Assembly (NCBI GenBank): GCA_048882505.1
Contig: JBHLRO010000009.1
Coordinates: 91,894 to 123,893, forward strand
Direction of reading: 5' to 3'
Source of the DNA: Candidatus Thorarchaeota archaeon
Lineage (GTDB): Archaea; Asgardarchaeota; Heimdallarchaeia; Hodarchaeales; Hodarchaeaceae
DNA length: 32,000 nt
A program made the translations under genes and the position numbers. Shown one piece after another: positions 17,653-19,709 of this stretch; position 1 is the stretch's first letter, and the number at the start of each line of letters is the position of its first letter. Below the pieces are notes generated by a model. It saw only the letters and a program-made list of their open reading frames with translations, made no database searches and was not told the origin of the DNA.

Positions 17653-18276
17653 GTGACAACTCTAACTGAACCAATCGACGAGAATTATCTTCGGATGGTT
17701 GAAGAAGAGCTAATGATCCGAGGTGGAAGATGGATAGCAAGTTTCGATACTGCATTTCGTAAATTTCTTGTTTCTAATGCCCTCAAAAACGTAGATACAG
17801 ATAAAACTCACAATAAGTCCGAATATGCGACAATGGTTTACGGGGGGGTTAGGAGCGGAGGTTTATTACTTTCCAGGGCTTTTGCTTTTATGGCCAGTCC
17901 AACCTATAAAGTTGGATTAGGGGCAATATTTTTGCCTGATCCGACGAGGGCCAAATGGTCGACAATCGTCCAGTATCTTCGTGAGTCTGGTTTCGTAAAA
18001 GATGTGATGGAATTCGAGTGGATGTGGATTCTGTTGTTTGGCCACGGAAAGCTCCCTCCCAAGGCGGCTGATAACCTTCAGCGCCATACCTCTAGGGAGC
18101 TGGGACTCCTTTATGCGGATTTAAAACATAAAACAATTATTAATTCGGACGCATTTATTTCTCGTAGAGGCGCAAAGCTATTTAATCCTGCAAATCTTGA
18201 TAAAAAGCCGTACCGATCAAAATTTACGGCAAAAAGAGCTGAAGAAGTTGACTCCAGAAAAGGATACTCCTCTTAA
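17653..18276 (+). CDS. Hypothetical soluble alpha/beta protein (207 aa)
   Basis: Long ORF with GAGG upstream of GTG and normal composition. No motif confidently recognised. Confidence 0.75.
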   Translation: MTTLTEPIDENYLRMVEEELMIRGGRWIASFDTAFRKFLVSNALKNVDTDKTHNKSEYATMVYGGVRSGGLLLSRAFAFMASPTYKVGLGAIFLPDPTRAKWSTIVQYLRESGFVKDVMEFEWMWILLFGHGKLPPKAADNLQRHTSRELGLLYADLKHKTIINSDAFISRRGAKLFNPANLDKKPYRSKFTAKRAEEVDSRKGYSS

Positions 18277-18763
18277 ACCTAGTGAAGAATTTTCACCGAA
18301 TATTCTTCAAACAAGGGCACTGTGGAATTTTCTCTGGATCTTTCTGACCATCCTTGCCGTGGAAACTTTAGGATTTGTATTAATTCGAGTAAACATCGCC
18401 GCCTGGCAAGGAATTATAGTAATCGATCTTGGAGCGGTTTTTTTCTTGATTCTTGGGGCATTAACCCTGGGATACCTATATTACACAAGATACGTAAAAC
18501 GTGTGATAATTTTCGGTGATAAGAGATTTAGCATAAGTGTAGGTAAAAATCTCTATCAATATGAGTGGAAGAATTTTAGAATGGTTGCATTAGCTATCGC
18601 TAGGGGTACAGCAGGCGTGAAAGGTTTCCTAATTCGCATTTATCAAGGCGACCTTGAGTCAGAGTATGTAGACCTTCCGATTTATAGGTTTTCAAAAAAA
18701 ATCAATGCCTTTGACCTAAGGAGCCAGATTGACGAAAAGATTAGTTCGGTTGGAGGTAAGTAA
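18197..18763 (+). CDS. Hypothetical membrane protein: two TM helices plus a beta-rich (PH-like?) domain; likely start TTG at 18248
   Basis: Two hydrophobic helices followed by VIIFGDKRFSISVG...YEWKNF...FLIRI, a layout seen in bacterial-PH-domain proteins. Confidence 0.7.
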   Translation: MIKSRTDQNLRQKELKKLTPEKDTPLKPSEEFSPNILQTRALWNFLWIFLTILAVETLGFVLIRVNIAAWQGIIVIDLGAVFFLILGALTLGYLYYTRYVKRVIIFGDKRFSISVGKNLYQYEWKNFRMVALAIARGTAGVKGFLIRIYQGDLESEYVDLPIYRFSKKINAFDLRSQIDEKISSVGGK

Positions 18764-18881: not shown

Positions 18882-19709
18882 CTAGCGATTCCTAGAGCGG
18901 GGTTCCCCTGGAAACCGTGGTTTCCCATCATCTTTGATCGATGGATCCTTAACGACCCGACCAACACGTTGCTTAGCATAAAAGCCTTTATTCCCGAGCT
19001 TAGCGAGATTCGTGGTCATCTCCAATACCAAACGGAGGAGGAGAGGAGATTTCGTGTCTTCATCTAGTTTTGCCACAACACGGATCGATGGAGTCGCTAA
19101 AGGATAGAGGGACACCCGAACAAGATGCTTTCTGGCAGAAAAGACGATTTTTAGGATATTGGGGGCCCCCTCAAAAAGCGCCTGAAAGAACTCCAGATCG
19201 TTTACTCGAAGAAGAAATTGAGCATCTAGGTCTTTGTTTCGAAAATCCATCACCTCCATTCTCCCCAGCATATCCATGAGCGATTTTATCCCTTTTTCAT
19301 CGCTTCGGGCCAGGATTTCTAATTGATATCGATGGACAATCTTATCCCTGGGATCTGCTTCTATGAGAACGTAATCCTTGCGCTTACGAACCAAGGCTCC
19401 TAGCTTACTCACGATTAGATGTCGTGGAACCATCGTATAGTGAAGTCTCAGATTTTGAATAGCCAAATCCTGTTTGAATTCAGTTCGGTATGATCTACCA
19501 ATAGTACTGGTCTCATCAAGTATAAATGTGTCAATCCATGCACTTGAACTTTGTTTTATATCCTCAAATGATGAGTCCATGATTTTATTGTTCTTTCTTT
19601 TGCCAAAGACGTATATCATAATCCCCACCATTACCGCGAGGAGGGAGATAACTAGTGTTGGCAAGAAGTAGATAAAATAGGCCCAGACAATATCGATAAT
19701 GGATGCCAT
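18882..19709 (-). CDS. CCDC47/DUF1682 (PAT complex subunit)-like single-pass membrane protein
   Basis: TM helix followed by IYVFGKRKNNKI...F, and LRLHYTMVPRHLIVSKLGALVRKRKDYVLIE. These align by eye with human CCDC47 as recalled (NYIIGKNKNSRL...WF; [30 protein letters not shown]). Confidence 0.6.
   Translation of the reverse strand: MASIIDIVWAYFIYFLPTLVISLLAVMVGIMIYVFGKRKNNKIMDSSFEDIKQSSSAWIDTFILDETSTIGRSYRTEFKQDLAIQNLRLHYTMVPRHLIVSKLGALVRKRKDYVLIEADPRDKIVHRYQLEILARSDEKGIKSLMDMLGRMEVMDFRNKDLDAQFLLRVNDLEFFQALFEGAPNILKIVFSARKHLVRVSLYPLATPSIRVVAKLDEDTKSPLLLRLVLEMTTNLAKLGNKGFYAKQRVGRVVKDPSIKDDGKPRFPGEPRSRNR

What the first reader, a model, noticed from the sequence alone, without database searches (positions are those of the whole stretch)
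18882..19709. Archaeal CCDC47 (PAT complex)-like protein: a eukaryotic ER multipass-translocon component
Seen: a single N-terminal TM helix, then Y-x-x-GKRKN, then a globular domain whose L...R..l+..L..++R..D.V.I segment matches human CCDC47 as recalled. The long charged C-terminal coiled coil of the eukaryotic protein is reduced to a short basic tail, and there is no lumenal N-terminal extension. Known: CCDC47 and Asterix chaperone multipass membrane proteins at Sec61. Inference: a eukaryotic-signature protein pointing to an archaeal origin of PAT. Asgard homologues may already be reported, so novelty must be checked. No Asterix-like gene was recognised in the window.
Basis: partly seen in the sequence, partly recalled or inferred. 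Interest (0 to 1): 0.72.

Follow-up and report, generated by a model that had tools for sequence, protein, structure and literature searches.

The report
Short-tailed archaeal relative of CCDC47
This Asgard (Hodarchaeales) gene encodes a small membrane-anchored protein that is a distant relative of the core of CCDC47, a helper of membrane-protein assembly at the eukaryotic ER; this suggests that part of that machinery predates eukaryotes, but its job in the archaeon is only inferred.

Summary
The ORF at 18882-19709 (-) is real: 275 aa with one N-terminal TM helix, the motif Y-x-x-G-K-R-K-N, an alpha/beta globular domain and a 34-residue basic tail.

**Identity.** The protein itself misses the Pfam CCDC47 cut-off (13 bits against 27.7). 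Homology rests on three independent lines:
- The AlphaFold model matches only CCDC47 chains strongly in the whole PDB (Z 16.9, 15.6 and 11.2; the next hit, TtfA, scores 9.8).
- A family profile has CCDC47 as its top PDB hit. That alignment matches G36, N40, R96 and D112 with exact spacing.
- Relatives bridge the gap. ~300-aa Heimdallarchaeaceae proteins pass the Pfam cut-off over the full length (35 bits) and link to this family by hhalign (95.5%).

**Place in the family.** This gene is a Hodarchaeales-restricted branch with a shortened tail. It has two paralogues in the same genome, which this scan already noted on other DNA.

**Limits.**
- No Asterix or TMEM147 was found.
- The neighbouring genes give no translocon clue.
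- Some relatives also match bacterial DUF3137, so the fold is not exclusive to Asgard archaea and eukaryotes.

**Novelty and function.** NCBI already labels some Heimdall proteins "DUF1682 domain-containing". I found no paper that describes Asgard CCDC47 homologues. A role at the ribosome-SecY insertion site is inference only.

The parts
18882..19709 (-). CDS of the 275-aa CCDC47-core-like protein (P0001), stop codon included
   Evidence: ORF list and translation. 11 orthologues at 41-62% identity. Orthologue-level matches (over 340 bits) in 13 of 21 genomes of the same genus.
19605..19688 (-). Single N-terminal transmembrane helix (about residues 8-35); N-terminus outside, rest cytoplasmic by the positive-inside rule
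   Evidence: Hydropathy scan. Continuous helix 4-54 in the model. It aligns to the CCDC47 TM, chain residues from 135 in 7tm3_4.
19590..19613 (-). Juxtamembrane motif Y33-x-x-G36-K-R-K-N40
   Evidence: G36 and N40 are at least 90% conserved in 38 family members. The motif aligns to Y-I-I-G-K-N-K-N of CCDC47. This is the stretch that gives the sub-threshold Pfam CCDC47 hit.
18987..19589 (-). Cytoplasmic alpha/beta globular domain (residues 41-241), the CCDC47 core fold
   Evidence: AF2 model with pLDDT 82 and pTM 0.74. VIA Z 16.9, rmsd 3.1 A over 218 residues to CCDC47 (7tm3_4), Z 15.6 to C. thermophilum CCDC47 (9i78_4). Foldseek E 6e-10.
19362..19424 (-). Conserved segment R96-H-L...R108..D112.V.I116 inside the domain
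   Evidence: R96 is invariant and D112 at least 90% conserved in 38 sequences. It pairs with R...R...D.V.I of CCDC47 at identical spacing.
18885..18986 (-). Short basic C-terminal tail (residues 242-275, net charge +7), predicted disordered
   Evidence: pLDDT below 50. The tail is net +5 to +8 in all 11 orthologues, and K246, R251 and D255 are invariant. It is absent from the two paralogues. It sits where CCDC47 and the Heimdallarchaeaceae long form carry a long charged helix.

Best explanation
Shown: the gene encodes a single-pass membrane protein (short N-terminus outside, the bulk in the cytoplasm). Its TM helix, juxtamembrane Y-x-x-G-K-x-K-N motif and alpha/beta globular domain are homologous to the TM-plus-globular core of eukaryotic CCDC47 (Pfam PF07946, formerly DUF1682). 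It belongs to an Asgard-wide family with at least three branches. Branch I, in Heimdallarchaeaceae and others, keeps the full CCDC47 layout including a ~50-residue K/E-rich C-terminal helix and passes the Pfam cut-off. Branch II leans towards bacterial DUF3137. Branch III is a Hodarchaeales expansion that holds this protein and its tail-less paralogue P0014. This protein is the copy in its genome that is closest to branch I, and the only copy that keeps a tail, a short and strongly basic one. Inferred (about 35-40% likely): like CCDC47, it sits at the cytoplasmic face of the membrane next to translating ribosomes and the SecYE-beta / YidC-like (Ylp1) insertion site. There the globular domain and basic tail would contact ribosomal RNA or the channel's cytosolic loops and help guide or shield nascent membrane proteins. 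It would do so without an Asterix-type partner and without the long latch helices that plug the Sec61 entrance in eukaryotes.
For: Structure: the AF2 model has pLDDT 82. The Foldseek top three hits are 7tm3_4, 9i78_4 and 6w6l_7, with E from 6e-10 to 3e-5. VIA gives Z 16.9, 15.6 and 11.2. An exhaustive search of 48,161 chains gives the same order, with the next hit TtfA at 9.8 and the rest at 7.6 or below. Chain identity: the PDB search names 7tm3_4 and 6w6l_7 as 'Coiled-coil domain containing 47'; PMC12572126 gives ctCCDC47 residues 76-447 for the 9I78 model. Sequence: profile A2 has CCDC47 as its best PDB hit (E 0.027) with G36, N40, R96 and D112 matched. 13 of 32 members hit PF07946, the best at 27.5 bits and E 2e-6. 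The Heimdall long form scores 35 bits, above the 27.7 cut-off, over profile positions 8-314 of 326. That long form links to this family by hhalign at 95.5%, E 1.4e-8, and its best match in this genome is this ORF. The long-form model has Z 18.6 to CCDC47 including the tail helix. Real gene: orthologues in 13 of 21 genus genomes and conserved motifs. Possible partner context: a true TMCO1/EMC3-family YidC-like gene is present (64.5 bits).
Against: The protein itself scores only 13 bits on PF07946, and only over the TM and motif. Single-sequence and A1-profile PDB searches find nothing. No Asterix and no TMEM147 were found. The latch helices that give CCDC47 its known contacts with ribosome and Sec61 are missing here. 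The neighbours are metabolic or unknown genes and none is a translocon gene. The fold is shared with mycobacterial TtfA, and some relatives match bacterial DUF3137, so homology does not by itself fix the function. No eukaryotic sequences could be brought in, so there is no rooted tree.
Confidence: 0.8

Rival explanations
1. Same ancestry, different job. The protein is one of many members of an old prokaryotic superfamily of TM-anchored domains (DUF3137 / TtfA / CCDC47-like). It acts as a membrane-tethered adaptor or scaffold for something other than the translocon, as TtfA does for the lipid exporter MmpL3. In this view the translocon role arose only in the eukaryotic line.
For: TtfA is the next best structural match (Z 9.8 over 158 residues). 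Family members P0035 and P0031 match DUF3137, with P0035 above that family's cut-off. The ESM Atlas lists ~240-aa bacterial clusters (Chloroflexota, Acidobacteriota) with TM 0.65-0.78 to this protein. Three diverged paralogues in one genome suggest several different jobs. There is no Asterix, there are no latch helices, and there is no translocon neighbour.
Against: CCDC47 outranks TtfA by about 7 Z units and also covers the TM helix. The juxtamembrane G-K-x-K-N motif and the R...R...D.V.I spacing are shared specifically with CCDC47. This ORF gives no DUF3137 hit. A sister branch keeps the charged C-terminal helix typical of CCDC47.
Confidence: 0.3
2. The resemblance to CCDC47 is convergent. 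A common two-layer alpha/beta fold (type III secretion chaperone / YbjN-like halves) sits behind a generic TM anchor, with no shared ancestry.
For: Sequence identity to CCDC47 is only 10-14%. Direct sequence E-values are marginal (0.027-0.058). Chaperone-like folds appear at Z 5-7.6.
Against: There is a gap of more than 7 Z units to all non-CCDC47, non-TtfA folds. The match covers TM, linker helix and the whole domain. The four invariant family residues align to identical CCDC47 residues. There is a transitive chain of significant hits: A1 to A3 at E 1.4e-8, then A3 members to Pfam at 35 bits over the full length.
Confidence: 0.05
3. The ORF is not a functional gene.
For: No RNA data were available.
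Against: Intact orthologues at 41-62% identity in 13 genomes with conserved motifs and conserved flanking genes. A confident fold.
Confidence: 0.01

Closest known systems
Eukaryotic CCDC47 (calumin; PAT-complex and multipass-translocon subunit; Pfam PF07946, formerly DUF1682; structures 6W6L, 7TM3/7TUT, 9I78)
   Same: Single TM followed by Y-x-x-G-K-x-K-N. The same cytosolic alpha/beta globular fold (Z 15.6-16.9, about 215 residues aligned). The conserved R...R...D.V.I segment at the same spacing. The same predicted topology, with the bulk on the cytoplasmic side.
   Different: No signal peptide and no acidic lumenal N-domain. About 34 basic, disordered residues replace the ~80-residue latch helices. 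No Asterix partner was detected. It would sit in the plasma membrane of a prokaryote. Below the Pfam cut-off (13 bits).
Heimdallarchaeaceae ~300-aa 'DUF1682 domain-containing proteins' (e.g. P0082, P0094, P0101)
   Same: Same Asgard family (hhalign 95.5%, E 1.4e-8). Same TM, motif and domain. The start of the tail looks related (consensus L-R-V-I-K-D..L-E-E-E-K against P-V-I-L-K-K..L-S-E-K-E-K).
   Different: They carry a 47-residue K/E-rich C-terminal helix and pass PF07946 over the full length. They sit directly behind a Ras-like GTPase gene. They fall on a different tree branch (branch I against branch III).
Paralogues in the same genome: P0014 (G000:C18, 263 aa) and P0013 (G000:C25, 235 aa)
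   Same: TM plus G-[RN]-RKN motif plus the same domain. P0014 matches at hhalign 99%, E 6e-18.
   Different: Both lack the basic tail. P0013 is very distant (51% probability) and groups with the DUF3137-leaning branch. P0014 lies beside Arf-GTPase and ubiquitin-system genes.
Mycobacterial TtfA (6T84) and bacterial DUF3137 (PF11335)
   Same: N-terminal TM anchor plus a related alpha/beta domain (TtfA Z 9.8). Some Asgard and Bathyarchaeia family members match DUF3137.
   Different: Much weaker structural match, and none over the TM and linker. No sequence-level match for this ORF. No G-K-x-K-N evidence. TtfA works with MmpL3 in mycolate export, which is irrelevant to archaea.

Membership tests
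CCDC47 (Pfam PF07946 / DUF1682) | Scores at or above the Pfam gathering threshold (27.7 bits) | tested here: not met
   13.0 bits, E 0.058, residues 21-55 only. Relatives reach 24.8-27.5 bits, and the Heimdall long form reaches 35 bits.
CCDC47 (Pfam PF07946 / DUF1682) | Single TM helix followed by the juxtamembrane Y-x-x-G-K-x-K-N motif | tested here: met
   Residues 8-35 and Y33-N40. Aligned to YIIGKNKN of CCDC47.
CCDC47 (Pfam PF07946 / DUF1682) | Cytosolic alpha/beta globular domain with the CCDC47 fold | tested here: met
   Z 16.9 / rmsd 3.1 A / 218 aligned (7tm3_4). Z 15.6 / 2.9 A / 213 aligned (9i78_4). Top of an exhaustive search.
CCDC47 (Pfam PF07946 / DUF1682) | C-terminal latch helices / charged coiled coil that bind ribosome and Sec61 | tested here: not met
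   Only 34 residues follow the last domain helix, with pLDDT below 50 and no helix predicted. The feature is present in the Heimdallarchaeaceae branch (H252-298).
CCDC47 (Pfam PF07946 / DUF1682) | Signal peptide plus acidic lumenal N-terminal domain | tested here: not met
   The TM starts at about residue 8 and nothing precedes it.
PAT complex (CCDC47 + Asterix) | An Asterix/WDR83OS (PF03669) partner is encoded | tested here: not met
   No match over the cut-off in the six-frame search of this genome (94.5% complete; best E 0.89 in a non-membrane ORF). None in 83 Heimdallarchaeia genomes. A partner too diverged for Pfam cannot be excluded.
Multipass translocon | Physical association with ribosome, SecY/Sec61 and the TMCO1-like insertase | not testable with these tools
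   SecY and a YidC-like Ylp1 are present. Binding needs biochemistry or cryo-EM.
DUF3137 (PF11335) | Match to the Pfam model | tested here: not met
   No match anywhere in this genome at E <= 1. Only branch II relatives (P0035 at 31.7 bits, P0031 at 21.5 bits) match.
TtfA (trehalose monomycolate transport factor A) | Fold and sequence similarity to TtfA | tested here: inconclusive
   The fold is related (Z 9.8, 158 aligned, 8% identity). There is no sequence-level hit. The ESM feature score of 0.77 is only a lead.

The most novel reading that the evidence does not exclude
Asgard archaea already had a forerunner of the eukaryotic multipass translocon. In it, CCDC47-like proteins (long-tailed in Heimdallarchaeaceae, short-tailed or tail-less paralogues in Hodarchaeales) dock on ribosome-SecYE-beta together with the YidC-like/EMC6-like insertase. 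Eukaryotic CCDC47 would then descend vertically from this Asgard family, and Asterix, BOS and the lumenal domain were added later.
Probability: 0.25. Interest if true: 0.85.

Novelty: new variant of a known kind. Interest (0 to 1): 0.55.

Why it matters
CCDC47 is described as a eukaryote-wide ER factor (PMC7505659), and no prokaryotic origin is discussed in any paper I could search. A family of true homologues in Heimdallarchaeia, the Asgard class containing the Hodarchaeales that have been proposed as the closest relatives of eukaryotes (abstract listed), would add CCDC47 to SecY/Sec61, YidC-like/TMCO1-EMC3-GET1 and EMC6-like proteins as membrane-protein-biogenesis parts inherited from archaea. 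It also offers a minimal system for asking what the conserved globular core does: no lumenal domain, no Asterix, and a tail that varies between paralogues. That core function is still unclear in eukaryotes. This particular gene is the less eukaryote-like, short-tailed version. The Heimdallarchaeaceae long form is the better model, so the value of this ORF lies mostly in showing the diversification of the family.

Tried and rejected
- **Sequence searches that found nothing.** The single-sequence PDB search gave only chance proteasome hits at E about 0.6. The A1 and A5 profile PDB searches gave nothing. NCBIfam gave nothing.
- **Word-indexed homologue search with alignment A2.** It added only one new sequence.
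- **Eukaryotic CCDC47 sequences.** The last homologue search returned only Asgard proteins, and max_evalue is capped at 10. So there was no direct hhalign against a eukaryotic alignment and no rooted tree with eukaryotes or bacteria.
- **Complex prediction of this protein with the genome's YidC-like Ylp1.** No answer (score 0.01). This is neither support nor evidence against.
- **Sequencing runs.** No RNA holder is listed. The DNA is seen in sediment metagenomes of two studies.
- **Other translocon parts.** Asterix and TMEM147 searches were negative. NOMO and Nicalin were not searched, because their Pfam domains are too generic to be informative.
- **Gene neighbourhood as a clue to function.** The conserved flank holds an amino-acid permease, an orphan 207-aa ORF and a 2-TM bPH-like protein. 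They converge on this gene, the conservation is within one genus only, and no translocon link appears.
- **Link to small GTPases.** The Heimdall long form follows a Ras-like GTPase and P0014 abuts an Arf-like one. The two GTPases belong to different families (28% identity), the genome has 60 such genes, and this ORF has none beside it. This is not used as evidence.

Full report
**1. What is there**

The minus-strand ORF 18882-19709 starts with ATG and encodes 275 aa. It has a single hydrophobic segment: all 19-residue windows with Kyte-Doolittle above 1.6 start at residues 1-20, which puts the TM at about residues 8-35. The segment is followed at once by Y33-V-F-G-K-R-K-N40. By the positive-inside rule the rest of the protein should face the cytoplasm.

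An AlphaFold2 model built on 12 homologues has pLDDT 82 and pTM 0.74. It shows one long helix (residues 4-54, TM plus linker), an alpha/beta domain that ends with helix 221-241, and a low-confidence tail at 246-275. The last 35 residues carry net charge +7. The orthologues carry +5 to +8. There is no N-terminal extension.

**2. It is a real, conserved gene of an Asgard archaeon**

Eleven homologues at 42-62% identity come from Heimdallarchaeota/Hodarchaeales MAGs, plus one labelled Thorarchaeota. None carries a Pfam label.

In 301 Asgard genomes the orthologue-level match (over 340 bits) occurs only in the window's own genus, in 13 of 21 genomes. A second, weaker match of about 100-120 bits marks a paralogue found in essentially every genome of that genus.

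The flank is the same in all 11 orthologous loci: amino-acid permease, then an orphan 207-aa ORF, then a 188-aa membrane protein, all converging on this gene. The window's genome is 94.5% complete.

**3. Is it CCDC47-like?**

*Direct sequence tests are weak.*
- Pfam PF07946 gives 13 bits (cut-off 27.7), E 0.058, over residues 21-55 only.
- NCBIfam gives nothing.
- phmmer and the narrow-profile PDB search give nothing.

*Structure is clear.*
- The Foldseek top three hits are 7tm3_4 (E 6e-10), 9i78_4 (5e-8) and 6w6l_7 (3e-5). Everything else has E above 4e-3.
- VIA-align gives Z 16.9 (rmsd 3.1 A, 218 aligned, model 15-243 against chain 135-403), then 15.6 and 11.2.
- An exhaustive alignment to 48,161 PDB representatives gives the same order. 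TtfA follows at 9.8 and type III secretion chaperone / YbjN-like folds at 7.6 or below.
- The chains are CCDC47. The PDB search names 7tm3_4 and 6w6l_7 'Coiled-coil domain containing 47', 483 aa. PMC12572126 states that the 9I78 model holds ctCCDC47 residues 76-447.

*Sequence evidence comes through intermediates.*
- A profile search of 1.8 billion representatives found 30 relatives, all 200-280 aa.
- Every named one is Asgard (Hodarchaeales, Heimdall, Hermod, Jordarchaeaceae), apart from one Bathyarchaeia protein.
- The 32-sequence profile has CCDC47 as its best PDB hit: E 0.027, profile positions 15-160 against CCDC47 residues 140-293.
- That alignment pairs G-k-r-k-N with GKNKN. It pairs the family's R96...R108...D112.V.I with R...R...D.V.I of CCDC47 at identical spacing.
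- These four positions (G36, N40, R96, D112) are the only nearly invariant columns of the family.
- 13 of the 32 members hit PF07946. Four of them score 24.8-27.5 bits over about 180-200 residues.

**4. A closer Asgard relative of CCDC47 exists elsewhere**

Weak matches of the A1 profile in another family of the same class turned out to be ~300-aa proteins. They have the same TM and motif plus a ~60-residue K/E/R-rich C-terminus.
- One of them, P0082, scores 35 bits on PF07946 (E 1.2e-8) over residues 16-297, against profile positions 8-314 of 326.
- Its model has pLDDT 86 and adds a 47-residue helix at 252-298. It matches CCDC47 at Z 18.6 with 275 aligned residues reaching chain residue 475, so the match includes the latch region.
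- These proteins are from Heimdallarchaeaceae. Several are already named 'DUF1682 domain-containing protein' by NCBI.
- They link to this ORF's family by hhalign at 95.5% probability, E 1.4e-8.
- Their best match in the window's genome is this ORF, at 30.8 bits.
- PF07946 passes its cut-off in 13 of 301 Asgard genomes, spread over four families, and in none of 14 control genomes.

**5. Structure of the family**

The genome holds two paralogues. I found them with a six-frame PF07946 search.
- P0014 is 263 aa; hhalign gives 99%, E 6e-18.
- P0013 is 235 aa; hhalign gives only 51%.
- Both lack the tail.

An unrooted ML tree of 41 sequences gives three groups:
- I: the Heimdall long forms plus P0041, P0042, P0043 and P0062.
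- II: P0013 with P0031, P0033, P0035 and P0038, the DUF3137-leaning set.
- III: the P0001 clade (support 100/99), the P0014 clade and other Hodarchaeales proteins.

This ORF is therefore a lineage-restricted, short-tailed paralogue and not the direct counterpart of the eukaryotic protein. The start of its tail (orthologue consensus L-R-V-I-K-D..L-E-E-E-K) resembles the start of the long-form tail (P-V-I-L-K-K..L-S-E-K-E-K). This suggests truncation of an ancestral charged helix. The region is low-complexity, so I hold that only as a suggestion.

**6. How exclusive is it?**
- P0035 (Bathyarchaeia) passes the bacterial DUF3137 model at 31.7 bits and also scores 26.8 bits on CCDC47 over overlapping residues. 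The two Pfam families are therefore probably related.
- TtfA shares the fold.
- The ESM Atlas lists bacterial ~240-aa clusters with TM 0.65-0.78, beside a CCDC47 cluster at TM 0.73 (leads only).
- The domain is thus likely ancient in prokaryotes. The specific CCDC47 features (motif, spacing, charged tail) are seen in Asgard archaea.

**7. Function**

Nothing here was measured.

In eukaryotes CCDC47 pairs with Asterix and contacts the ribosome, Sec61 and TMCO1 (PMC9630114, PMC7505659). Its C-terminal latch helices lie between the ribosomal tunnel exit and Sec61 (PMC12572126).

In this genome:
- A TMCO1/EMC3-family YidC-like gene is present, at 64.5 bits.
- Asterix is not found, neither here nor in 83 Heimdallarchaeia genomes.
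- TMEM147 is not found.
- The neighbours of this ORF are a permease, DeoC, a glucose/sorbosone dehydrogenase, PPDK and LysRS.

My best mechanistic guess is a cytoplasm-facing, membrane-tethered accessory at the ribosome-SecY/YidC insertion site that uses its basic tail on rRNA or on the channel's loops. I give this about 35-40%. The main rival, at about 30%, is a different adaptor role within the wider TtfA/DUF3137-like superfamily.

**8. Novelty**
- No paper in the library holds both 'CCDC47' and 'Asgard', or both 'Asgard' and 'multipass translocon'.
- No listed paper paired DUF1682 or PF07946 with archaeal terms.
- The held supplements of two Asgard ESP papers do not list it. A third paper has no supplements held as text.
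- A recent structure-clustering preprint mentions EMC6 but has no occurrence of 'translocon' or 'Sec61'.
- Automatic annotation already tags the Heimdall long forms as DUF1682.
- This scan had already noted the two paralogues in the same genome. I reached them independently.

I rate this ORF a new variant of a known kind: prokaryotic, core only, short-tailed and without Asterix.

Noticed in passing
L022:668-1564 (+), L021:595-1506 (+), L023:387-1283 (-), L031:610-1509 (+); proteins P0082-P0113: Heimdallarchaeaceae encode ~300-aa CCDC47 homologues with the full layout: TM, motif, core and a 47-residue K/E-rich C-terminal helix. They pass the Pfam cut-off, and the model matches CCDC47 at Z 18.6. 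They are a better model for the ancestry of CCDC47 than the window's gene.
   Followed up: yes
L037:4340-4903 and L034:4381-4944, just upstream of the long-form gene; L003:355-930 next to P0014: The Heimdall long form always follows a Ras-like small GTPase gene on the same strand, with a gap of 56-97 nt. The Hodarchaeales paralogue P0014 abuts an Arf-like GTPase that also scores on the SRP-receptor-beta model (40 bits). The two GTPases belong to different families, and the genome has 60 such genes, so the link may be chance.
   Followed up: partly
L003:961-2913 (G000:C18): Paralogue P0014 lies beside a JAB/MPN-like gene and an E2-like ubiquitin-conjugating gene, identified by reading the sequences only. 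An earlier scan note describes a ubiquitin operon there.
   Followed up: no
window 17653-18276 (+) and 18197-18763 (+): An orphan 207-aa ORF with no family and a poor predicted fold, and a 2-TM protein whose cytoplasmic part resembles bacterial PH (bPH_2/DUF304) domains. The pair is conserved next to the CCDC47-like gene in all 11 orthologous loci, converging on it. The listed start of the 188-aa ORF is probably too early, because the alignments begin at residue ~30.
   Followed up: partly
G217:C1:469530-470732, G214:C81:58041-59243, G208:C18:33343-34545: In three genomes of the genus the YidC-like Ylp1 gene is one 436-aa open frame. About 240 extra residues are inserted between positions 118 and 131 of the 192-aa protein. 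This could be an intein or an inserted domain.
   Followed up: no
P0035 (Bathyarchaeia, 221 aa): One protein passes Pfam DUF3137 (31.7 bits) and nearly passes CCDC47 (26.8 bits) over overlapping residues. This implies that the two Pfam families are homologous and could belong to one clan.
   Followed up: partly
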